DNA of 64,000 bases from Selaginella moellendorffii (lineage: Eukaryota > Plantae > Lycopodiophyta): the NCBI RefSeq assembly GCF_000143415.4, contig NW_003314280.1:1612894-1676893 (forward strand), written 5' to 3'. The translations under genes and the position numbers were made by a program. Positions 2,495 through 64,000 of the stretch are shown in pieces (the first letter of the stretch is position 1; every line of letters starts with the position of its first letter). Under the pieces are notes generated by a model. The model made no database searches, had not been told where the DNA came from, and was given only the letters and a program-made list of their open reading frames with translations.

Positions 2495-2497
2495 ACT

Positions 2498-22746: not shown

Positions 22747-22806
22747 TGTCAAGAATCCCCCAATTCTTGCCACATTCCTGACTCTCGCCGGATTCCTGAC
22801 CTGCAG
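22747..22806 (+). repeat. 60-bp stub of a family D LTR at the rearrangement breakpoint
   Basis: TGTCAAGAATCCCCCAATTC...CCTGCAG, preceded by target GTCCC. Confidence 0.85.
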
Positions 22807-24645
22807 GAAAGTGGTTGTGGTGGAGAACTGGCCTACACCAAGTACAGTGGCCGAGTTATGCAGTTTCCTTGAAATGGCTAGTTACTATTGATGTTTCCAG
22901 CATAAGTTTGCAGAGGTGGCTATTCCTTTGACAAAGTTGTTGTGCAAGAACATGCCATTTGAGTGGAAGAAGCCACAAGAGGAGAGTTTTGTGGCACTAA
23001 AACAATTGTTGAACGAAGCTCTAATGTTTCGCATTGTTGATCCATCAAAACCTTACGAGGTGACATGTGATGCAAGTGGTTATGCATTGGGAGGAGTTCT
23101 CATACAAGATGGACAGCCTATTGCATATGAGAGTCAAACTTTAAATCCCACGAAGCAATGCTATTCCACATATGAGCAAGAATTACTCTCTATTATTCAT
23201 ACTTTGTGGACATGGCAACACTATTTTTATGGTGTAGTGTTTGTGGTGTTGACAGATCACAAACCACTTGTGTATCTTTTCACATAGAAGGCGTTGAACA
23301 TTAGGCAAGCTTGTTGGATGGTCAAATTCATGGAGTTTAGGGAATTTCTTATTGAGCATCGTCCAGGAAAATCAAATGTGGTGGCGAATGTCAGGAATCC
23401 CCCAATTCTTGCCACATTCCTGACTCTCACCGGATTCCTGACCTGCAGACCACATTCCTGACTCTCGAGATACTTCCCTATTCCTGACTCTCGAGACACT
23501 TCCCTATTCCTGACTCTCGACTTCCCATACGATTCCTAAGTCTCGAGCCACATTCCTGATGATGATGTGGCGCCTCCTCAACCTCAACTATATTTGGGCC
23601 GTCCTCGATCCAAGAGTGGTGGAGCTTCATCAACCTATAGTATATATAGGTTAGCCTTGTTCCATTTCTCCACAATCTGAATCAACACCAGTCTAAGGCC
23701 TCTTCTTTGTTATTCATTAGCTTTTCTCTTGTCTTTTGCATTTTCCAGTCTTGATCTTGTTAGGGGTCTTGACAGCAAATGCTTTATCTTATGTTCATCA
23801 TGTGACGGTGTTATAAACATGGTTTTGTTATCATTTGAGTAAGGTGGTCAACAAGTTTGGGAAATTGGCTGCACAGCTCAAGCTCAGGATGCTGAGGTAG
23901 GCTCTTTGTGTGACCAGATGGAAGCCCCTTTCTCATTGGTGGATGGGATTCTCTATTATAATAGCCATGTATTTTTGCCATGGGTGGATGCGTTAATTAC
24001 TTAGGTTTTATTCCACTATCATGATTGTTCGGAGGCTAGTCATTTTGGGGGGAAGAAGATGTATGAGTTGATTAAGCGCAATTTTTATTCAAGGAATATA
24101 AAGGTTGATATCCTCAAGTATTGTAAATCATGCAAGCTCTGTCAGCGGGTTAAGATGCCACATAAGAAGTCAGGGGGACTTTTGCAACCTTTACCTATTC
24201 CTTAGAGCTGTTGGTGTAGTATCTCTATAGACTTCATCATTAGTTTGCCATGCACATAAAGGCAAAAGGAGCAAATATGGGTTATAATGGATCGGTTGAA
24301 GAAGTATGTGTGGTTGTTGGCTCTTCGAAAGATTATCACTACCCTAGACTTGGTTGCGGTCTACTTGGAGAAAGTTTTTTCTGATTTTGGTTTGCCAGAG
24401 GACATCATTAGTGATTGAGATTCAAAGTTCACAAATGAATTTTGGAAGAGCTTTGTGAAGGCTATGCAAGTGACTTTGAAACTCTCGAGTGGCAATCATC
24501 CTCAGATGAATAGGCAAACCGAGCATGTGAATCAGGTGGTGGAGGATATACCATATTGTAGCATTGGTCAAAGGCAAGGACAGTGAAATCTATTTCTTTC
24601 GTTGGTGTAATTTGCTTACAACAATAGTCAACACAATGGAACCAA
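22807..24645 (+). pseudogene. Family E pol: duplicated RT-end/RNase H segment and integrase, split by a solo D LTR
   Basis: 22805-23388 is an inverted copy of 49497-50080 (CDASGYALGGVL, TDHKPL). Decayed integrase motifs lie at 23775-24645. Confidence 0.85.
23389..23774 (+). repeat. Solo LTR of family D (386 bp)
   Basis: TGTCAGGAAT...TCTTGACA, TSD GCGAA/GCAAA, TATATATA at ~23641, 25-bp internal tandem repeats. Confidence 0.9.
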
Positions 24646-28778: not shown

Positions 28779-31700
28779 TTGTCCACGCTGATCTCTCACA
28801 ACCTTTCTTCATTGAGGCTGATGCCTCCGACTTTGCCATTGGTGCTGTGCTGTCTTAACTCGGAGCAGATCAAGAATTTCATCCGGTCGCCTTCCATTCT
28901 CGGAAATTCCAGCCTGCGGAGATCAATTACAAAATCCACGATAAGGAGCTCCTTGCCATTGTGGATTCCTTTGGAGAGTGGCGTCGTTTCTTGGAGGGGG
29001 CAGGCCATCAAACAACGGTCTAGACGGATCACAAAAATCTCAAGTACTTTGCTACTTCCTGAGTTTTGAGCCGTCGTCAAGCAAGATGGGCACAATTCCT
29101 GAGTCGGTTTGACTTTGTTATCAAGTACAGACCTGGAAAGCTTCAAGGCCTTTCTAATGCTCTTTCAAGGCGCTCCTATCTCAGTCTCAGGCCTGGTAAT
29201 CCTGCCTTCGATCAACAAGATTAGGTTATCCTCGGTCCTAATTGGCTTCAAGTTATGGCAATTTCCTTAGCCCCTCAGGACTCTTCCTTGATAGATGCAA
29301 TCAAAAATGATCTTCAATCCGATGACCTCACCAGCGACATTTTCCCCCATCTTCAGGCTGGACACCCAGTGACTCCCGACTGCCGGCGATTTGATGAGTT
29401 TGAGTTCTTAGATGGCTTGTTGTACTGTGGGGAGCAACTTTATGTTCTTGAAGGTGATGCTCGAAGGTTGGTCTTGATGGCATGCCATGATAGCCTGACT
29501 GTTGGTCACTTTGCGAAAACCTATGAGTTGGTTGCACGGGACTTTTGGTGGCCTCACATGGATGACTACATCAAAGCTTTTGTTACCTCCTGTGACACTT
29601 GCACCTGGAATAAGGTACCTTGCCAAAGGCTGCCTTGAGTGTGTCAAAGGCCTGTTGGGCAGCAGTAGACCAAGAGAAGGGAACATCCTTGCGAGTGAGA
29701 TGCGTGAGAGGAAAGACAATGTTAGAGTAGTGATCAATGAATTTGCAGTAGAAGTTGGCAAAGCCAAGGAAAACCTGAATGTCCGATATTAATTGTGGAG
29801 GCTCCCATTCGAGAATAGTTTTAACTTTGGTAGGATCCATCATGATACCCTTAGGAGTGACAATGTACCCAAGGAATTCCACAGACTCCTGATCGAAGGA
29901 ACATTTCTCAAGCTTCGTGTAGAGGCTGTGTTCCCGCAGCTTCGCCAGCACCTTGCGTACATGTTCATCGTACTCCTCCTGAGTTTTCGAGTAGATGAGG
30001 ATGTCATCGAGGTAGACGATCACCATCTGATCAAGAAACTCCCAAAAGATGTTGTTTGCCATGTGTTGGAAAACTGCTGGAGCATTTGTCAAGCCAAACG
30101 GCATGACAGTGTACTTGAAGTGGCCATAGCGGGTTCGGAACGCAGTCTTCCATTCATCACCAGGCCGGATCCGGATCAAGTTGTATGCTCCACGGAGGTC
30201 GATCTTAGTGAAGAAGCGGGCACCGCCGAGGCATTCCAACAGGTCCAAGATCAGGGGCAGCGGATAACGGTTCCGAACAATCACCTTGTTCAAACCTCGG
30301 TAGTCAATGACTAGCCGCAAACTCCCATCCTTCTTCTTGACAAAGAAGACAGGCGCTCCAGCTGGGGACTGCGAATGCTGAATGTACCCCAAGGCAAGGT
30401 TCTCATCCACGTACTCTTTGAGGGCCTTAAGCTTGGATAGGGACAACCCGTAGATAGGCCCCCACGGAGGTGACGCTCCTTCTTGTAAATCAATGGGACA
30501 GTCATAAGGCCGATGAATAGGCAGTACACTAGCCTTTTTCTTGTCAAACACATCCTCAAAATCATGATACTTCTCAGGAAGACTGACAAGAGAAACATGC
30601 AAAGAAAAAAGGAAAATAGATTCTTCATGAAGGAGTTTTTTTATAGTGATTGTGGAGATAGGAGGAGGCGTACGACTAAATGGAATGATGAGATGAGGAT
30701 ACTATCCAGTGTAAGATGGAAAAGAGGAAAAAGAAGAGGGTGAAAACTTCGTAGAGTTAGGAATAGAACCCTGATTTGAGTTTAGGGAACTTTTCCTGAT
30801 TCGGACTCGGTGAGTAGTAGGGGAAGCTATGGGAGATGGTGACGTGGGAGAGATGAGTTGTAATTCCTTCAAACAGATCTGAGGCTGGTGTAGTTGGAAC
30901 CAAGGAAGGCTGAGCACCACAGAGGAGGACTTATTGTTGATGATGTTGAAGGTGATATTGGTGACGATGGACCCGATGTGTACTCAAACGGGCAACATTT
31001 TCCTAAGTCCAGAAGATGGAGACACAAAATGCCCATTGATGCCTTCAACCCTTAGATCCCGTATGGTAGGAGAAAGAGGAACGTGATGTCGGGCAGCAAA
31101 GTCTGTGTCCATGAAGTAGGAAGTTGCACCCGAGTCCAGTAGCGCCAGAGTCTTGAGTCCTGATTGTCTGGTGAAAGAAAGGAGACATGGGATGCGGGAA
31201 TTGGTGCTGGTTTTGATAAAAGATGGTGAGTGTAGCGCATGTGATCATGGGATGAGATTTGGATATACTGTCACCATGGATCCTTGAAACCTTGGGGGAT
31301 AAATGGGGATAAAATAGCCACTAAAGGCTCTCTCATCAAGCAATTGCCCCTTTTCTAGTTGGCTTAAGGGGAGAGAGATAAGATGCGCTACAGTTGGTAT
31401 CAAAGTAAATAGCACGGGTTCGATTCCCATTGATTAGTAGCTACTTAAAAATATAATATACCCTTGAGCAAGGTATACTCCTACCCCTAAAATTTGAAAT
31501 CGTACATATTGGGGATCCATGCATACGTCCTTCCTCTTGTGTGGAGTATCCACAGACAAAGGTATCCACTATGGGACTGCGTTACGGGTGGATGACTAGT
31601 TGCCTCACATGGAATAGCTAGTCTACACAATGGAAGGATTGGTAAATTCAGTGCAGAAATGGAGGTGTTGGTTCCCCTTGGCTCAGTAGGGGTTGTTAAT

Positions 31701-33418
31701 CAATAGTCAATGAGGACATTGACATCTCTGAAAGGGGGGTGAGTGTAGCGCATGTGATCATGGGATGAGATTTGGATATACTGTCACCGTGGATCCTTGG
31801 AACCTTAGGGGATAAATGGGGATAAACTAGCCACTAAGGGCTTTCTCATCAAGCAATTGCCCCTTTTCCAATTGGCTTAATGGGAGAGAGATAAGGTGCA
31901 CTATAGTGAGGAGTTTGATAAAGAAGAAAAGTGATTTTTATTCGGGGAGTCTAAACAGATAGCTCCTACTCTATTTGGACAAGGTCATTTCCCGAATGCA
32001 GCAGAGGTGGATCTTGAGGCAGAGTGAACTCGAGCAGTCGGGGAGGCTTCTTGGGACACACAGCTGCTTTGTGATTAGGATCAGCACAGTAGAGGCAAAG
32101 ATTATGAGATATTCGAAGTTGCTTCTTAACAGGACTCAACTTCCCTCTGATGAGTCGGGGGGTACCAAAAATATCCATTAGGACCGGAGTAGTAGGTTCA
32201 AGAGTATGCCTTGAAGACTCAAGCTGGAATTCCTGAGTCTGAGATGGGAAAACGGCGGCGCGGCAACTTTCCTGACGATGCTCAAAGAGATGATTGTTGC
32301 ATCGAACAGCTTTGTTGATCATGTCCGATAGGTTTGTGGGATCCTCCATGGTGAGCAACAAATCCTTGACACTGTTGTTGAGGCCGAAACGAAATTGATC
32401 AATCAGGGCCCACTCATCCCACTGAGTGTCCAAGGCAAGGAGTTGAAACTCTGCAGCATAGATCGAGGCAGGACGAGACCCCTGAGAGAGACATCTCATC
32501 TTTGTGGTGGCAGCCCGAACCCGATCCGTCTCGCCAAAACATGCTCCGAGCTTCTCTTTGAATAATTGAAGATCCATCAGCTCCGGAACCACAACCCCTT
32601 TTATGCTCATCTCTAGGGGAGGAGAAAACCATGACAAAGCTGCACCTTTGAGAAACATCCCAATCGCGCCAATTTGAGACTCGGGAGTGGGGTACCGCTG
32701 ATGTTGAAGTGCGAAGATCAGCTCCATCTGGTTCAAGAATCCGCGAAGCTCCGAATGCTTGCCTAAAAATTTCACCGAGAAACTCACCTTCGGTTCAGAA
32801 ACTTTGCTTGATCCTTGAGCCGAAAGTGAAGCAAGCTCCTATTGCATGCAAAGAAAGGTCGCCTTCAACTCGATATTCTCAGACTAGATTTTTGCAAGGA
32901 CTTCGGCAAATAAATCAGGATGGCTTGGAGACTCCATCAGCAAAGAAGAAAGAAAAGGGGGAAAAAGGCAAGGCAGTCAAACAATCAAAACGGGCTAAAG
33001 CAAAATAAAAAAAACACAATCTGAATCAAATTGTCAAGACCCCCAACAAGATCAAGACTGGAAAATGCAGAAGATAAAGAGAAAAGCTAGTGGAAATGAA
33101 GAAGAAGCCTTAGATTGGTGTTGATTCAGATTGTGGAGAAATGGAATAAGGCTAACCTATATATACTATAGGTTGATGAAGCTCCACCACTCTTGGATCG
33201 AGGATGGCGTAAATATAGTTGAGGTCGAGGAGGCGCCATATCATCATCAGGAATGTGGCTCGAGACTCAGGAATCGTACAGGAAATCAGAGAGTCAAGAA
33301 TAAGGAAGTGTCTTGAGAGTCAGGAATAGGGAAGTGTCTCAAGAGTCAGGAATGTGGTTTGCAGGTTAGGAATCCGGCTTGAGTCAGGAATATGGCAAGA
33401 ATTGGGGGATTCCTGACA
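28779..33418 (-). mobile_element. Family D chromovirus copy D3, rearranged and 3'-truncated
   Basis: 5' LTR 33032-33418, gag 31966-~32940, RT 29630-30602 (YLDD). The RNase H/integrase N-terminal piece 28779-29625 lies on the opposite (+) strand. Confidence 0.88.
31231..31905 (+). mobile_element. TRIM (terminal-repeat retrotransposon in miniature), family G, 675 bp
   Basis: 162-bp LTRs at 31231-31392 and 31744-31905, with 10-bp terminal IR TGTAGCGCAT/ATGCGCTACA. PBS TGGTATCAAAG, PPT GAAAGGGGGGTGAG, perfect TSD GTGAG. Confidence 0.93.
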
Positions 33419-37676: not shown

Positions 37677-37953
37677 GATATTCTTCCTGGTTTATAAGTT
37701 TCCAAACTTTAGATTGTTACCTTTCACTACTTTTCTTGTTTTGAGCTCTTTCACTCAAAATCCACTACTTCAGGGTGACATGACATATTGTTGGCTCTGC
37801 ATGGGTCTAAGAATGTATACGTGACCATGAGAAACAATTAAAAATGATCTCTTGATGCCATTTCTGTGAATAAATACCAGAGAGCAGAGCCCACCACAAT
37901 TCACACCAATTAGTTCCTTCTTGAGATTTCACGACATCAAGTGTTCTATAGCA

Positions 37954-38607
37954 ATGGCTTTCATCAAAATTGTCACGGTGGCATTCTTTGTGTGCATAGC
38001 TATTAGTGGAGTTTTGGGTGATGAGGATCCTCTCCAGGATTTCTGCGTGGAGGATCCAAACTCCAATATTTTCATCAACGAAGTCCCTTGCAAAGATCCC
38101 ACCACAGTCACTGCTGATGACTTCACCTCCACCATCCTGCGCCAGGGTCCAGTCACAAACAACACATTGCGAATCCAAGTCGACTTGATCGATATTACAA
38201 TGTTTCCAGGCCTCAACACACAGGGACTCTCCATTGCTTGCCTGGCATTTGGTCCATTTGGCGTGAATCCTCCACACAACCATCCTCGAGTGTTCGCGGT
38301 CATCTGGCTCCTCCAAGGACGCCTCTACGTTGGATTTGTGTCAACTTCCAACCAATTGTTTACAAAGGTTTTGCATCCAGGTGATCTGTTCATCTTTCCT
38401 AGGGGTCTCGTTCACTTCCAGCGAAACCTGGATAACTTGGACACAGTTGCGGTGGCTGTGCTTGGAAGCCAAAACCCGGGAAGGATAGACATGGCTAGAG
38501 TGTTGTTCCAGACCACACCAAACATCATGAACGAAGTTCTTGAGGCAGCTTTGCAGGTTGATGAAAATGAAATTGATAACTTACGCCATGGAGTGAGCCG
38601 CACTTGA
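37954..38607 (+). CDS. Germin-like protein (cupin), intronless, with signal peptide
   Basis: Hydrophobic N-terminus, DEDPLQDFCV...PCKDP, box 1 GVNPPHNHPR, box 2 GDLFIFPRGLVHFQ; 217 aa open frame. Confidence 0.88.
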   Translation: MAFIKIVTVAFFVCIAISGVLGDEDPLQDFCVEDPNSNIFINEVPCKDPTTVTADDFTSTILRQGPVTNNTLRIQVDLIDITMFPGLNTQGLSIACLAFGPFGVNPPHNHPRVFAVIWLLQGRLYVGFVSTSNQLFTKVLHPGDLFIFPRGLVHFQRNLDNLDTVAVAVLGSQNPGRIDMARVLFQTTPNIMNEVLEAALQVDENEIDNLRHGVSRT

Positions 38608-43909: not shown

Positions 43910-44306
43910 TGTCAAGACCCCCAACAAGATCAAGACTGGAAAATGTAAAAGACAAGAGAAAAGCTAGTGAATAACAAAGAAGAGGCCTTAGACTGGTGTT
44001 GATTCAAATTGTGGAGAAATGGAACAAGGCTAACCTATATATATTATAAGTTGATGAAGCTCCACCACTCTTGGATCAAGGACGGCCCAAATATAGTTGA
44101 GGTTGAGGAGGCACCACATCATCATCAGGAATGTGGCTCGAGACTCAGGAATCGTATGGGAAGTTGAGAGTCAAGAATAGGGAAGTGTCTTGAGAGTCAG
44201 GAATAGGGAAGTGTCTCGAGAGTCAGGAATGTGGTCTGCAGGTCAGGAATCCAGCGAGAGTCAGGAATGTGGCAAGAATTGGGGGATTCCTGACAGCACC
44301 CGCTCC

Positions 44307-47300
44307 TCAAGAACGAGTGGAACAAGGACGTGAATGAGAACGAGGAGAAGGATGAGATGGGCGGCGAGGGACGGGAGATGGAGAAAAAGAATGAGGACTG
44401 GGATGAGAAGGATAGTGGCGGTGGAAGTCCTGAACAAGGTTAGAAGAATGAATCAAGTTGTCCGTAAGTTCCCAAGTGCATTCTTCAGGTCCATAACCCT
44501 TCCAGTCGACCAGATAGTAGAGTTTAGACCGTGAGATCTTGGAATCAAGGATGTCCTGAACCTCGTACTCAGACCCATCCTCGAGCTTCACTGGTGGAGG
44601 CAGAGGAATGACCCAATTTGGAATAGGACTGGGAATATAAGGCTCAAGGAGGGAGGAGTGAAAAACGGGGTGAATTTGATATGAGGAGGGAAATGCAAGG
44701 CGATAAGTGACAGGATTAATGATGGCAGTGATAGGGAAAGGACCGAGGTGTTTGAAATCGAGTTTGGGACATGGCCTGGTGGTGGAGATATTTCGCCTGA
44801 GGAGCCAGACTTTATCCCCAATATTGTAAGGGGGACAATCCTGACGATGGACATTGGCAAATGTTTTGTGAGAGTCCTGAGCACGATGGAGGTGGAAGGA
44901 GATGGAGTTGTGGATTTCCTGGAGGTTGGAGATAAATGTCTCAGAGCAGGGATTAGAATGAGAGGATTCAGATGGAGAAGGAAGTGAGAGATTGAATCGG
45001 GGATTTCGGCCAGAGTTCGCAAAGAAGGGGGAAACACGAAGAGAGGAGTGAACAGAGTTGTAATAGGAGAATTCAGCAACGGGAAGGATATCGAACCACT
45101 CATTCTGATGATAGTTGATGAAGCACCTCAGGAATTTTTCCAACGTCTGAATCGTTTGCTCGGACTGTCCATCAGTTTGAGGATGATATGCCGAAGAGAG
45201 GTTGGCCTTCACTTCAAGCAGCTGCAGAAACCGTTGCCAGAAATGAGAGATGAACTGAGGTCCCCGATCCGAAACCACATCTACAAGAATCCCATGAAGT
45301 CGGAAAATTTCCCCAAATACCAGTTTTGCCATGTCCTCGCCCGAAAACTCCTTGGTACACGGCAGGAAGTGCGCCATCTTTGTGAAGCGATCCACCACGA
45401 CTAAAATGCTATTGAAGCCTCCAGAACTTGGGAGATCACTCAAGAAATCCATGGAGATGGATTCCCAAGGACTTGAAGGGACCGGGAGGGAACGAAGCAA
45501 ACTTGAAGGAAGGTGGCGAGGTACCTTATTTCGGGCGCAAGTGTCACAAGAGGTAACAAAAGCTTTGATGTAGTCATCCATGTGAGGCCACCAAAAGTCT
45601 CGTGCAACCAGCTCATAGGTTTTTGCAATGCCGAAGTGACTAACAGTCGGGCTATCATGGCACGCCATCAGGACCAACCGTCTAGCATCACCTTTAGGAA
45701 CATAAAGCTCCTCCCCACGGTACAACAAGCCATCTAAGAACTCGAACTCGTCAAATCTCCGGCAATCGGGAGTCACTGGGTGTCCAGCCTGAAGATGGGG
45801 GAAAATGTCGCTGGCGAGGTCATCCGATTGAAGATTGTTTCTGATCGCATCCATCAAGGAGGAGTCCTGAGGGGCCAAAGAAATTGCCATAACTTGAAGC
45901 CGATCAGGACCGAGGATAACTTGATCCTGTTGATCGAAGGCAGGATTACCAGGCTTGAGATTGAGATAGGAGTGCCTTGAAAGAGCATCAGGAAGGCCTT
46001 GAAGCTTTCCAGGTCTGTACTTGATAACAAAGTCAAACCGACTCAGGAATTGTGCCCACCTTGCTTGACGACGGCTCAAAACTCGAGAAGTGGCAAAGTA
46101 CTCGAGATTTTTGTGATCCGTCCAGACTGTTGTTTGATGGCCTGCCCCCTCCAAGAAACGGCGCCACTCTCCAAAAGAATCCACGATGGCAAGAAGCTCC
46201 TTGTCGTGGATTTCGTAATTGATCTCTACAGGCTGGAATTTCCGAGAATGGAAAGCGACCGGATGAAGTTCTTGATCCGCTCCGAGTTGAGACAGCACAG
46301 CACCGATGGCAAAGTTGGAGGCGTCAACCTCGATCAAGAAAGGTTGTGAGGGATCAGTGTGGATCAAGATGGGAGCAGAACTGAAGGCCGCCTTGAGTGT
46401 GTCGAAGGCCTGCTAGGCAACAGCAGACCAAGAGAAGGGAATATCCTTGCAAGTGAGATGCGTGAGAGGAAGGACAATGTCAGAGTAGTGATCAATGAAT
46501 TTGCGGTAGAAGTTGGCGAAGCCAAGGAAAACTTGAACGTTTGACATTGATTGTGGAGGCTCCCATTCGAGAATAGCCTTGACTTTGGCAGGATCCATCG
46601 TGATACCCTCAAAAGTGACAATGTACCCAAGGAACTCCACAGACTGCTAATTGAAGGAACATTTCTCAAGCTTCACGTATAGGCCGTGTTCTCGCAGCTT
46701 TGCCAGCACCTTGCGTACATGTTCATCGTACTCCTCCTGAGTTTTCGAGTAGATGAAGATGTCATCGAGGTAGACGATCACCATCTGATCAAGAAACTCC
46801 CAAAAGATGTCGTTTGCTATGTGTTGGAAAACTTCTAGAGCATTTGTCAAGCCAAACGGCATGACAGTATACTCGAAGTGGCCATAGCGGGTTCGGAACC
46901 CAGTCTTCCATTCATCACCAGGCCGGATGTGGATCAAGTTGTATGCTCCACGGAGGTCGATCTTAGTGAAGAAGCGGGCACCGCCAAGGCGTTCCAACAG
47001 GTCCGAGATCAGGGGCAGCGGATAACGGTTCCGAACAATCACCTTGTTCAAACCTCGGTAGTCGATGACTAGCCACAAACTCCCATCCTTCTTCTTGACA
47101 AAGAAGACAGGCGCTCCAACCGGGGACTGCAAATGCTGAATATACCCCAAGGCAAGGTTCTCATCCACGTAATCTTTGAGGGCCTGAAGCTTGGACGGGG
47201 ATAACCCGTAGATAGGCCCCCACGGAGGTGATGCTCCTTCCTGTAAATCAATGGGACAGTCATAAGGCCAATGAACAGGCAGTACACTAGCTTTTTTCTT

Positions 47301-48077
47301 GTCAAACACATCCCCAAAATCATGATACTTCTCAGGAAGACTGACAGGAGAAACATGCAAAGCAAAAAGGAAAATAGGGTCTTCATGAAGTTCTTTCATA
47401 GTGATTGTGGAGATAGGAAGAGGTGTACAACTAAATGGAATGATGAGATGAGGATACTGTCCAGTGTAAGATGGAAGAGAGGAAAAAGAAGAGGGTGAAA
47501 AATTTGTAGAGTCAGGAATAGATCCCCGATTTGAGTTTAGGGAACTTTTCCTGATTCGGACTCAATGAACAGCAGGGGAAGCCATGGAAGATGGTGATGT
47601 GGGAGAGACGAGCTGTAATTCCTTCCAACAGATCTGAGGCTGATGTAATTGGAACCAAGGGAGGCCAAGCACCACAGAGGAGGACTTGCTGTTGATGATG
47701 TTGAAGGCGATATCAGTGACGGTGGACCCGATCTGTACTCGAACGGGCAACGTTTCCCTAAGTCTAGAAGAGGGAGACACAAAATGCCCGCCAATACCTT
47801 CAACCCGCAGATCCCGTATGGTAGGAGAAAGAGGAACGTGATGTCGGGCAACAAAGTCCGTATCCATGAAGCAAGAAGTTGCACCTGAGTCTAGTAGCGC
47901 CAGAGCCTTGAGTCCTGATTGTCCGGTGAAAGAAAGGAGACATGGGACGCGGAAGTTGCGGGAATTGGTGGTGGCTTTGATGAAAGGTGGTGAGGAGCTT
48001 GATAAAGAAGAGAAGTGATTTTTATTCGGGGAGTCCAAACAGACAACTCCTACTCTGTTTGGACAGGGTCGTTTCCC
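44307..48077 (-). pseudogene. D1 pol (protease LLDSGAT, RT YLDD, RNase H, integrase, chromodomain)
   Basis: 686-aa open RH-INT-CHD frame at 44307-46367 plus RT 46647-47399 and PR 47562-48143; a few stops and frameshifts. Confidence 0.92.
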
Positions 48078-49021
48078 GACTGCAACAGAGGTGGACTTTG
48101 AGACAGAGTGAACTTGAGCAGTCGGGGAGGCTTCTTGGGACACACAGCTGCTTTGTGATTAGGATCAGCACAGTAGAGGCAAAGATTATGAGATATTCGA
48201 CATTGCTTCTCAGTAGGACTCAACTTCCCTCTAATGAGTCGGGGAGTACCAAAAATATCCATCGGGACCGGAGCAGTAGGTTTAGGAGTATGCCCTGAAG
48301 ACTCAAGCTGGGATTCCTGAGTCTGGGACAGGAAAACGGCGGCACGACGACTTTCCTGACGACGTTCAAAAAGACGATTGTCGCATCGAATAGTTTTGTT
48401 GATGGCATCCAACAAGTCCGTGGGATCCTCCATGGTGAGCAACAAATCCTTGACACTGTTGTTGAGGCCGAAACGAAATTGATCAATCAAGGCCCGCTCA
48501 TCCCACTAAGTGTCCAAGGCAAGGAGTTGAAACTCTGCAGCATAGATCGAGGCAGGACGAGACCCTTGAGAGAGATGTCTCATCTTTGTGGTGGCAGCCC
48601 GAACCCGATCCGTCTCGCCAAAACATGCTTCGAGCTTCTCTTTGAACAATTGAAGATCCATCAGCTCCGGAACCACGACCCCTTTCATGCTCTTCTCCAG
48701 GAGAGGAGAAAACCATGACAAAGCTACACCTTCGAGCAACGTCCCAATCGCACTGATTTGAGACTCGCGAGTGGGGTACTGCTGATGTTGAAGTGCGAAG
48801 ATCAGCTCCATCTGGTTTAGGAATCCACGAAGCTCCGAACGCTTCCCTGAAAATTTCACCGGGAAACTCACCTTCGGTTTAGGAACTTTGCTAGATCCTT
48901 GAACCAAAAGTGAAGCAAGCTCCTGCTGCATGCGAAGAAGGGTCACCTTCAGCTCGGTATTCTCAGACTGGATTTTTGCAAGGACTTCAGCAAAGAAATC
49001 AGGATGGCTTGGAGAATCCAT
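48050..49021 (-). pseudogene. D1 gag (PEG10/sushi-like capsid, CCHC knuckle CLYCADPNHKAAVC)
   Basis: ATG at 49021 (MDSPSHPDFF), one premature TAG at 48506, ends SGNDPVQTE. Confidence 0.88.
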
Positions 49022-49496
49022 TGGAAAAGAAGAAAGAAAAAAGGGGGAAAAAATGCAAAGGCAATCAAACAATCAAAACGAGCTAAAGCAAAAAACGAAA
49101 AAGCACAATCTGAATCAAATTGTCAAGACCCCCAACAAGATCAAGACTGGAAAATGCAAAAGACAAGAGAAAAGCTAGTGAAGAGGCCTTAGACTGGTGT
49201 TGATTCAGATTGTGGAGAAATGGAACAAGCCTAACCTATATATACTATAGGTTGATGAAGCTCCACCACTTTTGGATCGAGGACGGCCCAAATATAGTTG
49301 AGGTTGAGGAGGCGCCATATCATCATCAGGAATGTGGCTCGAGACTCAAGAATCGTATGGGAAGTCGAGAGTCAGGAATAGGGAAGTGTCTCGAGAGTCA
49401 AGAATAGGGAAGTATCTCGAGAGTTAGGAATGTGGTCTGCAGGTCAGGAATCCGGTGAGAGTCAGGAATGTGGCAAGAATTGGGGGATTCCTGACA

Positions 49497-52400
49497 TTCG
49501 CCACCACATTTGATTTTCCTGGACGATGCTTAATAAGAAATTCCCCAAACTCCATGAATTTGACCATCCAACGAGCTTGCCTAATGTTCAATGCCTTCTA
49601 TGTGAAAAGATACACAAGTGGTTTGTGATCTGTCAACACCACAAACACTACACCATAAAAATAGTGGTGCCATGTCTGCAAAGCATGAATAATAGAGAGT
49701 AATTCTTGCTCATATATGGAATAGCATTGCTTCGCGGGATTTAAAGTTTGACTCTCATATGTAATAGGTTGTCCGTCTTGTGTGAGAACTCCTCCCAATG
49801 CATAACCACTTGCATCACATATCACCTCATAAGGTTTTGATGGATTAACAATGCGAAACATTAGAGCTTCGTTCAACAATTGTTTTAGTGCCACAAAACT
49901 CTCCTCTTGTGGCTTCTTCCACTCAAATGGCACGTTCTTGCACAACAACTATGTCAAAGGAATAGCCACCTCTGCAAACTTATGCTAGAAACATCAATAG
50001 TAACTAGCCATTTCAAGGAAACTGCATAACTCGGCCACTGTACTTGGTGTAGGCCAGTTCTCCACCACAACCACTTTCCTTAGATCCATCTTGACACCCT
50101 TAGATGTCACAATATGGCCTAGATATTCCACCTCCAACTTTGCAAATTCACATTTGCTCTTCTTCGCATAAAATTTGCTGTCAAGGAGTAACAAAAGAAC
50201 TTTGCACAAATGCATCTTATGCTCCTCCATATTCTTGCTGAAAACAAGAATATTGTCCAAGAAAATCTCCATAAACTTATGAAGATAATGCCTAAATACC
50301 TCCATCATCAACTGAGTAAATGTGCCTGGTGCATTCATCAAACCAAACAGCATAATTGTAAACTCAAAATGCCCAAAGTTTGTGTTGAATGCCGTCTTGG
50401 AGATAGATGCATAATCCATTACAATCTGATGATATCCACTCCTCAGATCAATCTTAGTAAACACTCATGCTTCACCAAGCTTGTCTAAGATATCATCCAT
50501 ATGTGGCATCGGTATCTTATCTTTCACTATCTTTTTGTTCAAGGCATGGTAGTCAATACACATCCGCATTGAACTGTCCTTCTTCTTCACAAGCAAGACT
50601 GGAGCACCAAATGAAGACTTACTTGGCTAAATAAATCCAAACTCCTTGACTTGTCGTTGAAGTTCTTGCTCCTCCGCATAACTTAATCGAAATGGATGCC
50701 AGTAAATTGGCCACGTCCCCAGCTCCAACATAATCCCATGCTCTACACCTCGTAATGGAGGCAACCCATGAGAAAGTTTAAATGGAAAAACATTGGAAAA
50801 CTCGTCGAGTACATCCCATATTGTTGCTTCTCCCCCACACGTGCCTTGGTCCCCCAAGTCACAAATAAATAGCAAGTAACACAAAAATGCTTTTTCATTA
50901 CGACAAGCCCGCTTCAAAGATGTAGCGGAGAGCATAACAACTGGAGGTTGAACTCCCTCTCCAAAGCACACATCTTTAATGCCATTGTACTCCAATGAGA
51001 CATGCTTAATATTCCACTTGATCTCCGGATCCACCTTTACTAACCATGGCATCCCAAGAATGAAATCCATGTGATAGATATCCGTGAGATAAAAAGTCTC
51101 CACAAGTGTGGTTTTACCAACCAACACTTCCAACCCCTTTACACAAGCATCGAAATGCTAAGCAGAGGTAACTGCACCTTCCACTGTATATGGAGGAACT
51201 CTGCATATGACTAGGCCATGCTCCGCAACAAACTTTGCTGAAACGAAGTTGTCATCACTCCCACTATCCAATAAAATCCGCACTAGATCGCCACGAAATA
51301 CACTCTCCATCATTAAAGCTGATTCACGAGTATCCTCGAGCTCCATCTTGTTCCACACACAGTTGAGCTAACAAGCAACGATCAAAAGCCTCTTCCTCCG
51401 ACCGGAATAGTTGTCCCCATCATCTTCACGTTGCAAAGTTTACAACTTTTTAGTATCTGATTTACCATCAATAGAAGATTGGCTATTCTTTTTGCTCTGT
51501 TGCTTGTTCTTCAACTGTGGACAATCAGCCTTATAGTGTCTAAGCTCGCCGCAATGATAACAACCCTATCTATAATTCTTCACAAAGAACTTCTACTTGT
51601 TTGACCCCTTTACATCTGAAGTAGTCACTACAGACTTCAACTTATGGTGCTTATTCCCATCTTTGTGTCCATGGCAATCATCACAATGATTCTTAACAGA
51701 AGGACTCCGTGAATGCTTGCAAGACTTGTGCTTGTCCTTGTTAAGTCGACGAGCTACATCAAAGAGCTCCTTCAAACTCTTTATAGGCTGAGAATGATGC
51801 AAATGTTGCCGCATGCTCTCACTATGAAGGCCATCAATGAAGTAGGACTTGTTTTGATCTGGATCCTTTGTTGGAACATGGCTAACCAAGCGAGTAAACT
51901 TCTTAATATAGTCTCTGAGCGTTATTTTCCCTTGCTAGAAATGCCAAAGTTCTATATGAGCATTTTCCATGTCGTAGTGAGGGGCAAAACATAAATGGAA
52001 AGCAATCTCAAACTCATCCATGGTAGACACTAGTGGTTTCTTATCTGCAATACAAAACTCTTCAAGTCAATTCCACCACTGCAAACCTGCATCACGCAAA
52101 ACCATTGAAATAGCCACTAAAGCCTTTGCATTTAGAGTTCAGCCAAGAACTTCTTCACATTGGCTAGCCAAGCGAGACACTTGGCCACACCACCATCACT
52201 AGAAAAGGTTAGAATCTTGAGTTGATTTATCAAGGAAGGTTTACTTAGAGCGCTACCACGTCCAACCTCGAGTGCCTCAACACGTTCATGCATGGTATCC
52301 ACCATGCCATGCATCTTGTTTTGCATCTCTTGCTGATTTTGATTAAGGGCTTGCAGCTCATGAACAACATCTTGAATGGTCCAAATTTCTACAACTTTGT

Positions 52401-52745: not shown

Positions 52746-54221
52746 TCATCAAATTTTATCTTTCTTAATAATAATATTTTATAAAAAAATTTAATTGATG
52801 TAATGTATTCTTGAACCTTCAATAATTATTAATTGGCTGGAGATAGTAAAAAAAAACTATTTTTTTTAGAAAACTTTATAATTTTGTATAGTAATAAAGA
52901 AATATTGTTACTAAAATAACAAAACATTAAAAATTCTAATTAAAAGCATTTGTAAAGTTTCAAATTCAACTTTAACATAAAAGGAAATTAATTAGCTTCA
53001 AGTAGTTTGGATTTCCTTGTGCTCGCTTGCCAAGAATCACATGATGCTGCTCCTACCCATAGAGGCAAATCGTGACTGGTTTTGACCCTTAAAAAAGAAA
53101 TTTTTCTTTCTTACTAATTTGGGTAGCAATTTCTATCCAAAGGCCTAAGGTCATCTGAATCTGCTTTGAGTTTTCATTGAGTCCTTCCACTCAAAGCAGT
53201 GAGGCCTTTAGTTGCCCAGAAACTGATACACTGCTGTGATTGAAATTGGTGTCAGTGTAGCTGGAAAGAACAACAGGATCAAGGAGGTACTGCAAAACGA
53301 AAGAAGAGGCTATACTGTTGATATCCACATAAAGCTCCCAAGCTGGTATAATATTTCTGGTAGCATGGTTTTTCTCTGGTCTTTGGAGGTGGTACGTGTT
53401 CTCCTGGACCTTCAAGAAATATTTGTGCGCGTGACTTTGAATCTAGCAACAAAAGAACAAGGACAAACAACGAGAACTTACAGTTTGGAGCCAACAAAGA
53501 GCTCAATCTCTAACATGGACATAGTACTTTTATTTTACATTCTTTATAATCTCCAACAAATCCTCCAGGAGACCTGCCAATAGATGAACTATGCCAGCTT
53601 CACAAACTCCACGAAGAGCTCCAGTAGCGTCAGAAAGCATGTCAATCCTTGGTGACAATTGCCTGCTAGGAGCAATCCACAAGGACCAGGTTGCGAGTTT
53701 AGCAAAATTATGATTTTGGTGTGTTGGTATCCAACTTACAGCTATTCCTTAATTGAGTAAACGTGAAAGGTTTTTGTTTGCTCTGGTGGTAGAGGGTTAA
53801 TAATAAGTTGTGACTTCACAGAAAATATTCTGTTTTGGCAGTTTCAACAAGAAGCATGAGACTGTGCAAACAAGTTTGCAAGTTTGTAATGGGGTTTTCT
53901 CACTCCCTCCACTCCCACCCTCACGTTCTTCCATCTCCCCACCCAGGCCACTCTGAGGTCCTAAGATGCTAAAGGTAAATCCTCCAGCCCTTGGACTTTG
54001 AACATTAAAGCTGGACTGGAAGATGTATAACTTGAATTTCTAACATGCCATAGATGTGAAGTCTCCAGCGACTGTTACGTGTTAAACTGGATAGGTTTTT
54101 ATTTTGCTTTGCATACACGGCCACGATTGTCATCACATTGCAATGCAACAACTAATTCCACACATAAAAGTCCAAGCTAGAAGATACATCTACGTCTCCG
54201 GCACGTGCCTCAACGAAATCA

Positions 54222-55195
54222 ATGGAGTTCCTCTGGATTGGTTTTGCGTCTTTCATTGCTCTCGTATTCCTTAAGCTTGTCAGTGGCAACCGAGGCAGCG
54301 GTAGCAAATCGCCACCATCTCCTCCGGGACTTCCAATCCTCGGCCATCTCCATCTCCTCGGTAAGCTCCCCCACCAGTCCTTGCAGAAGCTCTCCCAGAG
54401 GCATGGCGGCCTCATGCTTCTCAAGCTTGGCGTCCACAACACGCTCGTTGCTTCCACCGCCGAGGCCGCCAGGGAGCTCCTCAAGACGCAAAATCATGTC
54501 TTTTCTTCCAGGCCCAGGACGATTGCCGGCGAGAACTTCGGGTATGGAGGAGCTGGGATGGTCTGGGCCGCCTATGGCGATCACTGGAGGAGCGTCCGTA
54601 AGCTATGCACTCTGGAGCTCCTCACTGCCAAGCGAGTCGAGATGTTCCAGCAAGTCCGGAAAGCCGAGATGTCGATGCTCTTGAAGGAGATCCAAAGTTC
54701 CCAGACGAGTTCCGTGGAGCTCACGTCCAAGCTCCTGGATCTCACTTTCAACTTCATGACGAGGATGGTGATGAACCGGAGCTACTCCTCTGGGAGCTCC
54801 GCTGAGAGGGAACTCGCAGTAAGGTTCAAAGACTTGATTACGGAGGCGTTCACGGTGGCTGGAAGTAACACCTGGCCGACTTCTTCCCATATCTGGGATG
54901 GATGGACGGCCAAGCCAGGAAGATCTGCGCGATCCACAAGCAGCTCGACGAGTATCTGGCCAAGCAGATCGTCGAGCACCGCCAGCAGCCAGGAACCAAC
55001 AGAGATTTCCTGGACATGATGTTGGCCACAAAAGATCTCAGCGATACTTCCATCAAATCTCTCTGCCTGGTATGGAAACTGTTCCGTGTTCTTCTCGTCA
55101 TTGACATGGCGGAGAAGTTTGGTCTTACTGTTCCCAGAGCTTCTCCACTCAGGCTGGTACCGTCCACACGCTTGAACCCACAGGCATACATTTGA
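54222..55195 (+). pseudogene. Cytochrome P450 (CYP71 clan) pseudogene
   Basis: Membrane anchor, PPSPPGLPILGHLHLL, YGDHWR. A 1-nt deletion lies at ~54872, and a ~540-bp deletion at ~55105 removes the I-helix, ExxR, PERF and heme Cys relative to the 62540-64000 paralog. Confidence 0.92.
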
Positions 55196-57170
55196 TTGTC
55201 AAAATAAAACACACTTTTATTGCAAGTTCTCACGATCTTCATTGAATTTGAGTTGAATCTGCAAAGATTTGGTGAGGACAATCATCGTAGCGCGAGAAAA
55301 GAAACCTGTGCAAGTAGAGAATCGTGATTCGCGATCCTTCGGCGACCTGGCATAACAAGCGGACAGACATTTTCCTTTTCCTTGTGTTTTTTTTCGTAAG
55401 ATGGCTGACCTGGCACTTCAGGAATTCTACAGCAAAAGTTCACATAGAAAGCGAACTCCATACCTGAAAGAATGGAAGCTTGTATGGCAAACTTAAGCTC
55501 AGTTCCTCCAGTGTTGGAAGCTGGATATTTGTCTGTGTGTGCTCTAAAAAGTTCAGGACGACAATGAAAGAAAGGAAGAGCTTGCCTCATCATCAGGGAA
55601 TTTTTGGCGTCCGGACAGAAACAAACTTAATAGAGTGAATGAAAAACACCACACACTGGAGATTCTTGCCGCTCCTGCTAGTCCATCCCCACATTTAGTT
55701 GCCGTAATGGGGCGAGAGTTAATCGAGTTCTGTTTTAGGGTTCTTGGAGTGAAATAGAATGGTGGAGGCCATTCGCAAAGGTAGTCGCATGTAAAGTAAG
55801 AAAAAGATTCCCCACCATCTATGTTTATTGATCTAAACTGTTCTTTCCGTGTATCACTCTCTCAACCTTTGAGCGAGCTTTTATCTGCATTGGATCTACG
55901 AGCTCAGAATTTTGTCAAGCAAAGCAGCGCAAGGTACATGGATCTCTTTGGAATTCTCATTTCTCTTTTCCCTGCGAGTATAGGCAGCGGCCGAATATGT
56001 AGTCGAAAAGGGGCTGGATACCAAAGGTGCCGAAGCAGCACGAACGCGAGAGCTAGTTTTAAATGGTTATTATTCCTTAATTTGTTTTAAGGGTGGTTGC
56101 TTTGACCAGATCTTCACATTTCCCATACATCGCGTCCGAGGCTGGATAGAGTTCCTGGAACTCGGAGGATTTACAGACAGTGGGAGCTCGGTCTCCAGTT
56201 CTCCAGATCTTTCTTCCTTGCGAGAAATCTCCCATGGCTGTGCAAGCATTGGTCGCAGCAGCAAAAGCTAGTCTCCTTCTTTGCACCGATTTTCGCCGAG
56301 CAATCGCTTGAAAAGGCTCAACGCGGCTCGTTGACGCCATGCGCGACGTACTCGACGATCATGGCTGTGGAGCACGACGAATCCGCGCAACACACTTTGA
56401 GAACATCTTGATCACTGCACAGCTGATTTTTATTCCTTTGAGACCGAGCTCCCACTGTCTGTAAATGTTCCTCCAAGCTCCAGGAACTCTATCCGGCCTC
56501 GGAACGAGCAAAAGGTCTCGGATGAACTCCTTCTAGAGCTTGCAAAGGATTTTCATAGAGTTGCCAGCTTGAGCACACGCAGCTATGGCGGCGTTCCAAA
56601 ACTTCTCTTCCATTCCCTCGACGTCTTCCACACTGCCGATTTCCCATATGCCGGAATCAATCCATCCCAGCAGCATTCCTTCACAGAAAACTCTCCCAGC
56701 TCCACGGATTCGTGGATCACTCGGATGATCGCAGTGGCGCCCACAAGCCTCCACGATTGCGCAGAGCGTGAAGCTGCTGGGCTTGATCCCTTCCACCACC
56801 GCTTGCAATGCCTAAACAAAATCCCCGCTCTGGGAAATGCACGCTCCACGAGAACGATTCCAGCATCGGTCGTGATTAATCCCGGAGATTCCTGTCGTCG
56901 ATCACGCCAGCCCTCTTGGCGGCAACATCGCTCGCGCGCTTGGATTGCGAAATCAGCTCCACCTGGTTGCGTGTGACTCGCGCTTGCCGCTCCCTGCGAA
57001 GCTGCGCTGGATCGCGTGCGGACCATGGCGGATTTTGCTTCCCGCGACCTGCGATTCCCGCGCTTGCGATTCTCTCGCGACTGGAGGAGGATGTGATCCA
57101 CGCGACGACGCACGCGGCTGGAGAAATGCGCGAAGCCTCTGTTTGTAGAGTTTTGGGTTCCACTCCACAG
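54279..57170 (+). repeat. Left arm of a large inverted duplication (partner 61440-64000, continuing beyond the window)
   Basis: P450 exon, 3' UTR and downstream PPR relic all match in reverse complement. The left arm has an extra ~870 bp (55529-56400). Confidence 0.9.
56070..56900 (-). pseudogene. Pentatricopeptide-repeat (PPR) gene relic
   Basis: Frameshifted PPR-like pieces: GIKPSSFTLCAIVEACG, LIPAYGK, FWNAAIAACAQAG, AVIKMFSKC, AMYGKCEDL. Confidence 0.65.
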
Positions 57171-60367: not shown

Positions 60368-60992
60368 ATGGCTAAGTTTTTCCAAGTTTTTGTTGTCGTA
60401 TTGCAGTTTTTGCAATTGCCAATGTTGTAGTCGTGCGGGGTGATGAAGATCCCCTCCAAGACGTCTGCGTTGAGGATCCCAACTCCAGAGTCTTCATCAA
60501 TGGAGTTCCTTGCAAGGATCCCAGCACTGTGACCGCCAACGATTTCACCTCCACTATCCTCCACACTCTCAACATCATGGTCCAGCTGATCGATATCACA
60601 ATGTTCCCAGGCCTCAACACGCAAGGACTCTCCATCGCCCGCCTCTCATTCGGTCCATTCGGAGTGAATCCTCCCCACATCCATCCCTGATCATCCGAGG
60701 TCATATATTGCCTCTAGGGACGCATCTACATTGGGTTTGTGACAACTTCCAACAGGCTGTTCAAGAAGGTTTTGTATCCTGGGGACTTGTTTGTCTTTCC
60801 TTGAGGGCTTGTCCACTTCCAATGGAACCTTGACCCGGTCAGCGCTCTCGCGATCGCCACTCTTGGGAGTCAAAACCCTGATCACACGGGGCTCTTTTCC
60901 AAACTCCAGAATCTGGTAATCTGAACGAAGTGATCGAAGCAGCTGACGAGAAAGTGATTGAAGCCCTTCGCACTGGAGTGAGCCAGACTTGA
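60368..60992 (+). pseudogene. Germin-like protein pseudogene
   Basis: Paralog of 37954-38607 (DEDPLQDVCV, GVNPPHIHP*SSEV). It has in-frame stops at 60688 and ~60715, frameshifts and small deletions, with TATAAATA at ~60307. Confidence 0.9.
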
Positions 60993-62195: not shown

Positions 62196-62539
62196 ATATC
62201 CAGCTTCCAACACGGGAGGAACTGAACTTAAGTTTGCCATACAAGCTTCCATTCTTTCAGGTATGGTGTTCGCTTTATGTCTTGTTTTTCTTAAACTTTT
62301 GCTGTAGAATTCCTGAGGTGCGAAGTCAGCCATCTTACGAAAAACAAACACAAGGAAAAGGAAAAAGTCTGTCCGCTTGTTATTCCAGGTCGCCGAAGGA
62401 TCGCGAATCACGATTCTCTACTTGCAGAGGTTTCTTTTCTCGCGCTGCGAAGATTGTCCTCACCAAATCTTTGCAGATTCAACTCAAATTCAATGAAGAT
62501 CGTGAGAACTTGCAATAAAAGTGTGTTTTATCTTGACAA

Positions 62540-64000
62540 TCAAATGTATGCCTGTGGGTTCAAGCGTGTGGACGGCACCAGCCTGAGTGGAGAAGCTCTG
62601 GGAACAGTAAGACCAAACTTCTCCGCCATGTCCAACTCTTTGCCATCCGGCGCAGCCCAGTCAAACGCATGAAGCAAGCTTCCGAGCACGAACTGGACGG
62701 TGGTAGTCCCCAGGAGGATCCCCGGGCAGCTCCTCCTTCCCGATCCAAACGGCAGCAATTCGAAGCTCTGGCCTCTTACATCGATGTCCGGCTGCCGAAG
62801 AAACCGCTCGGGATCAAACTTGAGAGGCTCGTCCCACCACCTGGGGTCCCTCGCTATGGCATAGACATTGACGAGCGCGTGAGTTCCTGCTGGAATCACG
62901 TAACCCTCCAGCTCGCAAGCTTGGATGGATTGGTGGGGAATGCTCAGGGGCCCTGGAGGGTGGAGGCGCAGTGTTTCCTTGACGATGGCTTGGAGGAAAG
63001 TCAACTTTGGAAGATCAATCTCGTCTAGAGCCCGGTTCTCTCCGACAACCTCTTTGAGCTCCTCCTGAACTTGAAACACCATTGCTGGATTGTTTACGAG
63101 CTCGGCTAGAGCCCACTCCACCGTGACAGCAGCAGTGTCGGTCCCAGCAGCGATCATATCCTACGAAGTTACGTCAATGACGGGAAGAACAAGGAACCGT
63201 TTACATACCAGGCAGAGAGCTTTGATGGAAGTATCGCTGAGATCTTTTGCGGCCAACATCATGTCCAGGAAATCTCTGTTGGTTCCCGGCTGCTGGCGGT
63301 GCTCGACGATCTGCTTGGCCAGATACTCGTCCAGCTGCTTGTGGATCGAGGAGATCTTCTTGGCTTGGCCGTCCATCCATCCCAAATACGGGAAGAAGTC
63401 GGCCAGAGTGTTACTTCCAGCCACCGTGAACGCCTCCACGATCAAGTTTTTGAACCTCACAGCGAGTTCCCTCTCGGCAGAGCTTCCGGTGGAGTAGCTT
63501 CTGTTCATCACCATCCTCGTCATGAAGTTGAAAGTGAGATCCAGGAGCTTAGATGTCAGCTCCACGGGATTTGTATGGGAACTTTGGAGCTCCTTCAAGA
63601 GCATGGACATCTCCGTCTTCCGGACTTGCTGGAACATCACAACGCGCTTGGCAGTGAGGAGCTCCAGAGTGCACAGCTTCCGGACGCTCCTCCAGTGATC
63701 GCCATAGGCAGCCCAGACCATCCCAGCTCCCCCATACCCGAAGTTCTCGCCGGTAATCGTCCTGGGCCTGGAAGAGAAGACGTGATCTTGCGTCTTGAGG
63801 AGCTCCCTGGCGGTCTCGGCAGTGGAGACGACGAGCGTGTTGTGGATGCCGAGCTTGAGGAGCATGAGGCCGCCATATCTCTGGGAGAGCTTCTGCAAGG
63901 ACTGGTGGGGGAGCTTACCAAGGAGATGGAGATGGCCAAGGATTGGAAGTCCTGGAGGAGATGGAGGCGATTTGCTACCGCTGCCTCGGTTATCACTGAC
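62540..64000 (-). CDS. Cytochrome P450, CYP71 clan (A-type), 2 exons; start codon just beyond the window end
   Basis: Exon 1 63209->64000, GT-AG intron 63161-63208, exon 2 62540-63160. Motifs AAGTDT, KETLR, PERF, FGSGRRSCPG; no lesions seen. Confidence 0.93.

What the first reader, a model, noticed from the sequence alone, without database searches (positions are those of the whole stretch)
49104..49214. Family D chromovirus appears to prime reverse transcription on its own RNA (Tf1-style), not on a tRNA
Seen: right after the 5' LTR the element strand reads AT-TTGATTCAGATTGTG, with no TGG tRNA-type PBS. This 15-mer is the perfect complement of CACAATCTGAATCAA inside the LTR, about 30 nt downstream of the TATATATA box (23671-23685 in the solo LTR). 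The same perfect pairing is kept in copy D3 (33015-33029 vs 33121-33135) although surrounding sequence has diverged. Known: S. pombe Tf1 self-primes by annealing its first nucleotides to the PBS, and Tcn1-like chromoviruses occur in fungi and non-seed plants. Inference: the TSS is at the CACAAT motif and the transcript 5' end acts as primer.
Basis: partly seen in the sequence, partly recalled or inferred. Interest (0 to 1): 0.85.

Follow-up and report, generated by a model that had tools for sequence, protein, structure and literature searches.

The report
Self-priming site of spikemoss SM-Tcn1
A decayed copy of a known spikemoss jumping gene (SM-Tcn1) has, where a tRNA primer normally binds, a 15-base site that matches the predicted start of its own RNA, so it likely primes its own copying, a trick proven in fission yeast and already predicted in print for this group of elements.

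Summary
Observation confirmed: a perfect 15-bp complement links the LTR (49214-49200) and the site 2 nt after the 5' LTR (49118-49104), in priming geometry, with no tRNA-type TGG site; 0 of 20,000 resampled LTRs reach 15 bp. The host is Selaginella and family D is the published element SM-Tcn1 (same LTR, 323-aa Gag, about 90% identical). Its 2010 description found no evidence of self-priming, yet its deposited sequence carries the same 15-mer pair; a 2019 survey predicts self-priming for 83% of 1,500 Tcn1 elements. Added here: six related elements keep the pairing with different letters (53 of 56 variable positions paired, 1 of 5,040 permutations), 42-45 nt after a TATA box, inside a conserved CAA|C-RC-CA-GTN junction that marks the likely cleavage site. 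The RNA start probably lies 1 or 3 nt inside the 15-mer (14- or 12-nt primer). No start site or cleavage was measured, and Tf1's third duplex was not found. This scan noted the same layout before in three moss windows. Real, but known: interest 0.2.

The parts
43910..49496 (-). Copy D1 of SM-Tcn1 (Ty3/gypsy chromovirus, Tcn1 clade), 5,587 bp, internal part 4,825 bp; decayed; no target-site duplication (GCGAA / GTCCC)
   Evidence: published SM-Tcn1
49121..49496 (-). 5' LTR, 376 bp, TG...CA, with a 10-nt deletion in R/U5
49237..49244 (-). TATA box (TATATATA), the only TATAWAWR match in U3
49200..49214 (-). Predicted self-primer arm CACAATCTGAATCAA; predicted RNA start at 49213 (14 nt) or 49211 (12 nt), possibly 49214
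   Evidence: start inferred from TATA spacing and YR rule
49192..49199 (-). Conserved junction after the primer (C-AC-CA-GTC): predicted unpaired C at the cleavage point, AC facing the spacer, GTC pairing with the LTR end
49121..49124 (-). LTR end GAC-A; GAC predicted to pair with GTC at 49194-49192
49119..49120 (-). 2-nt spacer, AT here, GT in most of the family
49104..49118 (-). Primer-binding site TTGATTCAGATTGTG, perfect complement of the LTR arm, not tRNA-type
49022..49103 (-). T-rich leader between PBS and gag
   Evidence: described for SM-Tcn1
48050..49021 (-). gag, 323 codons, in-frame stop at codon 172
48071..48077 (-). GGGAAAC in the gag/pol overlap, candidate -1 frameshift site (inferred)
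44307..48158 (-). pol frame PR-RT-RH-INT-SH3-chromodomain (aromatic cage Y, W, Y present), three in-frame stops
44296..44308 (-). Polypurine tract before the 3' LTR
43910..44295 (-). 3' LTR, 386 bp, 95.2% identical to the 5' LTR over aligned bases; primer motif has one C-to-T change
33032..33418 (-). 5' LTR of rearranged copy D3, primer arm at 33135-33121
33015..33029 (-). PBS of copy D3, same 15-mer
23389..23774 (+). Solo LTR (flanks GCGAA / GCAAA), motif at 23671-23685; same insertion site as the D1 5' LTR

Best explanation
Family D is the Selaginella Tcn1-clade chromovirus SM-Tcn1, and the 15-bp match between its LTR and the site after its 5' LTR is likely a Tf1-type self-primer: transcription is predicted to start about 31-33 nt after the TATA box, the first 12-15 bases would fold back onto the primer-binding site, and the element's RNase H would cut after ...UCAA to free a 3' end for minus-strand synthesis. 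Shown: the complement, its polarity (primer 3' end faces the spacer and U5), the family identity, compensatory change across related families. Inferred: the start site, the folding in vivo, the cut and its position, a 2-bp extension at the cDNA end from the spacer. The window's copies are dead relics (stops in gag and pol, AT spacer).
For: Perfect 15 bp, 0 of 20,000 by chance; helix probability 0.97-0.98 and fold z of -3.9 and -4.5. Same LTR, motif pair and Gag as published SM-Tcn1 (33 differences in 323 residues, counted by eye), which its authors place in the Tcn1 clade. Tcn1: self-priming predicted for 83% of 1,500 elements, tRNA-Met 5%. Six related loci (L001, L002, L004, L005, L034, L056; 37-57% protein identity in the best segment) have different primer letters that pair with their own PBS: 53 of 56 positions 4-11 are Watson-Crick over 7 families, permutation mean 26.7, 1 of 5,040. 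TATAWAWR sits 42-45 nt before the primer end in 9 of 10 loci; the helix starts at a YR dinucleotide in 6 of 6 relatives. An inner helix next to the PBS shows three pair types (C-G, U-A, A-U) while the LTR 5' ends stay TGTCA. Within-family variants in the two arms at about 1% or more are three C-to-U changes that leave G-U pairs. Two other families in the window show ordinary TGGTATC sites, so the method sees tRNA sites where present.
Against: No start site, primer RNA or cleavage was observed. No compensatory change within the family, and contigs are not phased. Tf1's third duplex (leader with LTR) was not above shuffles in 7 of 7 tests (39-293 of 300). The inner helix is only 3-5 bp, is broken in D3 and L056, and is predicted weakly or not at all in L005 and L034. 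The first C of the 15-mer does not fit the YR rule. L074 has the LTR motif but no PBS was found. The related junctions were first picked by a search for inverted repeats and the motif was derived from them, so the permutation figure overstates independence. Host tRNAs could not be searched.
Confidence: 0.87

Rival explanations
1. A host tRNA or tRNA fragment primes at this site, and the LTR match is secondary.
For: Half-tRNA priming exists in plant copia lineages and 5% of Tcn1 elements are listed with tRNA-Met sites. Host tRNAs were not searchable (no tRNA in the window).
Against: No TGG, so no mature CCA end can pair. The PBS letters differ from family to family yet follow each family's own LTR. 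No Rfam match in 48900-49600.
Confidence: 0.04
2. The helix is real but serves packaging, dimerisation or translation control, or is a copying footprint; priming happens another way.
For: Third pretzel duplex not found; several relatives also have hairpins across the predicted start, which shows that inverted repeats arise here.
Against: The helix sits exactly at the PBS position with a fixed 2-nt spacer and priming polarity in 7 families, begins at promoter distance from TATA, and the clade is related to Tf1, where the mechanism was shown.
Confidence: 0.06
3. Self-priming in trans: the 5' end of one packaged RNA primes on the PBS of its partner. A variant of the best explanation that sequence cannot separate.
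For: Complementarity alone does not say whether pairing is within or between molecules; the third duplex is missing.
Against: The inner helix closing R onto the U5 end and folding in cis at probability above 0.9 in 6 of 7 folds favour one molecule; Tf1 is described as an intramolecular structure.
Confidence: 0.03

Closest known systems
SM-Tcn1 of Selaginella moellendorffii (Novikova et al. 2010, PMC2864245)
   Same: Same family: LTR start, TATA region, 15-mer pair, T-rich leader, 323-aa Gag (about 90% identical), overlapping pol, internal length 4,825 versus about 4,825 bp.
   Different: LTR 376-387 versus 440 bp (fewer U3 tandem units); window copies are broken and have an AT spacer. The paper reports no evidence for tRNA priming or self-priming; its own deposited sequence holds the pair at 392-406 and 499-513 (read by eye).
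Plant Tcn1 clade in REXdb (Neumann et al. 2019, PMC6317226)
   Same: Moss and club-moss chromoviruses; self-priming predicted for 83% of 1,500 by a 10-bp or longer LTR complement starting 0-5 bp after the 5' LTR, a test that D passes with 15 bp at offset 2; overlapping gag/pol; aromatic-cage chromodomain; 5.5-9.4 kb.
   Different: The passages and the summary table seen give no primer sequence, start site, covariation or junction motif; the per-element table (Additional file 1) was too large to read.
Tf1/Tf2 of S. pombe, Tj1, Tosmo1-3 (Tf1/sushi group)
   Same: RNA 5' end complementary to the PBS, cut by RNase H to give the primer; flanking duplex between PBS-adjacent sequence and the LTR.
   Different: Tf1 primer is 11 nt; here 12-15 nt predicted. 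Tf1's PBS appears to abut the LTR, here a 2-nt spacer. Tf1 needs three duplexes; only two are supported here. Tf1 is shown by experiment, this is not.

Membership tests
SM-Tcn1 family | More than 80% identity to the exemplar and shared LTR | tested here: met
   By-eye comparison: LTR, leader and proteins co-linear; Gag 290 of 323 identical. Not computed by script.
SM-Tcn1 family | Selaginella host | tested here: met
   Germin-like gene in the window: four best named hits are S. moellendorffii at 70-92%, others 50% or less. Species not fixed beyond this.
Tcn1 chromoviruses | Ty3/gypsy order PR-RT-RH-INT with C-terminal chromodomain, aromatic cage kept | tested here: met
   Pfam; Y, W, Y residues in the chromodomain (criteria).
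Tcn1 chromoviruses | Phylogenetic placement with Tcn1 / Tf1-sushi references | tested here: inconclusive
   My quick tree (45 rows, careful search unfinished) has no named references; D groups with L001, L002 (99) inside a clade of 20 rows (98). Placement in Tcn1 rests on the published SM-Tcn1 analysis.
Tcn1 chromoviruses | Overlapping gag and pol frames | tested here: met
   gag 49021-48050 and pol frame 48158-44307 overlap; GGGAAAC at 48077-48071.
Tcn1 chromoviruses | 5-bp target-site duplication | tested here: inconclusive
   D1 has none (GCGAA / GTCCC), the solo LTR has 4 of 5; copies are rearranged.
Tf1-type self-priming elements | No tRNA-complementary PBS; LTR complement of 10 bp or more starting 0-5 nt after the 5' LTR | tested here: met
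   15 bp at offset 2, no TGG. Internal tRNA fragments not testable.
Tf1-type self-priming elements | The LTR arm is the 5' end of the transcript | tested here: inconclusive
   Promoter spacing and YR rule agree; no direct mapping.
Tf1-type self-priming elements | Duplex between U5 end and R just downstream of the primer | tested here: met
   3-5 bp with three pair types in 6 of 7 families, up to 12 bp in D1; weak in folding for some.
Tf1-type self-priming elements | Third duplex of the pretzel (leader 3' of the PBS with the LTR) | tested here: not met
   Best duplex within 30 nt of leader not better than shuffles in 7 of 7; a crude test that can miss a short helix.
Tf1-type self-priming elements | RNase H cleavage releases the primer, which is linked to minus-strand DNA | not testable with these tools
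   Needs particles or an in vitro assay.

The most novel reading that the evidence does not exclude
Tcn1-like elements share an invariant RNA junction, CAA-C-RC-CA-GUN paired with N'AC-A-GU-UUG, in which a single unpaired C marks the RNase H cut; the primer letters and length (10-15 nt) float with the promoter while this junction is fixed, and a two-duplex fold replaces Tf1's three-duplex pretzel. That would give an exact, testable recognition rule for self-priming in plants, and it resolves the 2010 statement that SM-Tcn1's priming was unclear.
Probability: 0.4. Interest if true: 0.4.

Novelty: already known. Interest (0 to 1): 0.2.

Why it matters
It confirms, for a named lycophyte element, a clade-level prediction and corrects an older statement that SM-Tcn1 shows no sign of self-priming. 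The cross-family covariation and the conserved junction give a precise cut-site hypothesis for a mechanism that, in the papers seen here, has been demonstrated only for yeast Tf1. It does not reveal a new kind of system.

Tried and rejected
Whole genome not held: no genome-wide copy survey, no tRNA search. RNA: no RNA holder listed; three raw RNA-seq runs of the same species label, about 12% of each read, gave 2, 0 and 0 reads on 48800-49520; I did not show that the organism's genes are covered in them, so this is no test of expression or start site. Within-family covariation: contigs of four runs show no compensatory pair; one T>A at 49210 in a single depth-2 contig was set aside. Third pretzel duplex not found. 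No tRNA gene in the window, no Rfam hit. Cluster look-up gave no useful names for the closest pol relatives. Of 78 loci, 62 were screened for LTR pairs and all 78 for inverted repeats and the motif; six gave a usable junction of the D type, L003 and L043 hold only a downstream LTR, L074 gave no PBS, L019, L053 and L070 had unresolved LTR ends, L040 has a tRNA-type site. The careful tree did not finish. The original Tf1 papers and a Tf1 review were not held; Tf1 facts come from passages of secondary papers. Chance origin of the 15-mer rejected. D3 and the solo LTR rejected as independent evidence of selection.

Full report
Observation. The element lies on the minus strand. Its 5' LTR spans 49496-49121 and ends TTGACA; two bases (AT) follow, then TTGATTCAGATTGTG at 49118-49104. 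The exact complement CACAATCTGAATCAA lies in the LTR at 49214-49200, 30 nt after the first T of TATATATA. The same pair is in copy D3, the LTR arm is in the solo LTR, and the 3' LTR has it with one C-to-T change. In 20,000 resampled LTRs the best complement to a stretch starting 0-5 nt after the LTR never reached 15 bp. The polarity is that needed for priming: the 3' end of the LTR arm faces the spacer and U5. RNA begun at the motif folds with this helix (z -3.9 for D1, -4.5 for D3; mean pair probability 0.97-0.98).

What the element is. D1 (43910-49496) encodes Gag, protease, RT, RNase H, integrase, SH3 and a chromodomain, with one stop in gag and three in pol. A germin-like gene in the window has S. 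moellendorffii proteins as its four best named hits. The supplement of Novikova et al. 2010 (PMC2864245; I saw passages, section 6 and the one readable supplement, five .DOC files could not be read) gives SM-Tcn1: its LTR, leader, 323-aa Gag and Pol are co-linear with D, Gag differing at 33 of 323 positions by eye. So family D is SM-Tcn1. DNA contigs of a run of the same organism label pile up on the region (5,151 laid), in line with the 200-plus copies the paper reports.

What is known. [quoted passage not shown] Neumann et al. 2019 (PMC6317226; passages and Additional file 5 seen, Additional files 1 and 3 too large) predict self-priming for most Tcn1 elements of moss and club-moss, 83% of 1,500, using a criterion that D meets. 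Tf1's mechanism (first 11 bases pair with the PBS, RNase H cuts between 11 and 12) is taken from passages of PMC7175516 and PMC4600332; the three-duplex pretzel from PMC10085805; retention of a PBS copy at the cDNA end from PMC11042837; chromodomain criteria from PMC3350952; the YR rule and TATA position from PMC1832190, all as passages. Searches for Selaginella + Tcn1 + self-priming returned only the 2010 and 2019 papers, pretzel + self-priming + retrotransposon one paper, RLG1 + Physcomitr + self-prim none; I saw no description of the junction motif or an experiment in plants in these, but the library lacks most subscription papers and the key supplement was unreadable. This scan recorded the same layout in three moss windows; nothing near this place or by sequence.

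Covariation across families. A pol alignment fetched 78 metagenome loci, hosts not determined. Six hold an LTR-leader junction of the D type. Their LTR arm / PBS helices are 12 bp (L001, L002), 11 bp (L004, L056), 10 bp (L034) and 10 of 11 (L005, using its 3' LTR; its 5' LTR is more decayed). The last three primer bases are always CAA, the rest differ: at positions 4-11, 53 of 56 cells are Watson-Crick in the true pairings against a mean of 26.7 over all 5,040 permutations, only the true one reaching 53. Caveats: four of the six were first found by looking for inverted repeats and the motif was drawn from them; L001 and L002 are close kin of D while the others lie on separate branches of a quick tree without named references. 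If the primer is copied back into the PBS during plus-strand synthesis, as for Tf1, matching letters follow from the mechanism itself; that supports priming but is not proof of selection on a helix.

Start site and primer length. A TATAWAWR box lies 42-45 nt before the primer's 3' end in 9 of 10 loci, in eight as the only match in the stretch examined; L034 has none. The helix starts 31-33 nt after TATA in the relatives, at a pyrimidine-purine step in 6 of 6, the pattern of 77% of Arabidopsis starts. In D the 15-mer begins C|C at 30 nt; the next YR steps give a 14-nt primer (49213, 31 nt) or a 12-nt primer (49211, 33 nt) much like L001's. This is inference.

The junction. After CAA come C, RC, CA, GTN in D and the five motif-anchored relatives; before the PBS come N'AC, A, GT. 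This allows an unpaired C, two pairs with the spacer, a small loop and a 3-5 bp helix onto the LTR end, whose third pair is C-G in D, L001, L002, U-A in L004, L005 and A-U in L034, although all these LTRs begin TGTCA. Folding supports it strongly in D1, moderately in L001, L002, L004, weakly in L005, not in L034 or D3; L056 is decayed here. In family contigs the spacer is GT at 95% of depth and the R position is G at 43% (a G-U pair), so the window's AT copies have lost one pair. Variants inside the two arms are three C-to-U changes (4.6%, 1.3%, 0.9%) that leave G-U pairs; C-to-T is also the commonest decay, depth is not copy number, and arms are not phased, so this is only a hint. A leader-LTR duplex was not found.

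Independence of the window's copies. D1 lacks a target-site duplication; the solo LTR has GCGAA / GCAAA and shares 584 bp of flank with D1's 5' LTR at 96.6%, so the two descend from one insertion that was duplicated with its host element. D3 is about 8% diverged and rearranged; its unchanged 15-mers add little. Two other LTR families in the window carry TGGTATC sites and no long self-complement (9 and 7 nt).

Verdict. The feature is real and most likely a Tf1-type self-primer (0.87). The element and the clade-level prediction are in print, so novelty is low; what this work adds is the family-level match, cross-family compensation and a cut-site hypothesis. Interest 0.2.

Noticed in passing
L006, L008, L010, L014, L015, L027, L028, L036, L052, L072 (5' LTR junctions): A distant chromovirus clade (support 100 with L058) has an 8-bp LTR/PBS complement AAGATTAT / ATAATCTT after a CT spacer, extended past a one-base bulge, with a compensatory change in L027 and an inner TGTGA / TCACA helix: self-priming that a 10-bp perfect-match rule would miss.
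   Followed up: partly
L002:4293-4319, L004:1968-1995, L003:4400-4440: Perfect short inverted repeats straddle the predicted transcription start, so U3 holds a second copy of PBS-like sequence.
   Followed up: no
L001, L002, L004, L034: Tandem arrangement of two element parts around a single LTR; could be collapsed assembly or true tandem insertion as described for Tf1/Tf2.
   Followed up: no
window 22805-23774 and 49121-50080: Inverted duplication of a host gypsy segment together with the D LTR inserted in its RNase H region; D1's right flank jumps to the host's SH3-chromodomain part.
   Followed up: partly
window 28774-33418: Copy D3 is truncated, with an inverted RH-INT piece (28774-29625) and a 170-bp duplication around an insert at 31225-31907.
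   Followed up: no
window 838-8332 and 13403-20676: Two other LTR elements with tRNA-Met-type sites; the second has 99.3% identical 1,143-bp LTRs and a GGCAC duplication, so it is young.
   Followed up: partly
window 37870-38607, 60438-60833, 54168-55528, 62196-64000: A germin-like gene with a diverged second copy, and an inverted pair of cytochrome P450 sequences among the retrotransposons.
   Followed up: no
P0167: A 92-aa protein labelled as from a Streptomyces assembly clusters with a Tcn1-like Pol; likely plant or fungal contamination of that assembly.
   Followed up: no
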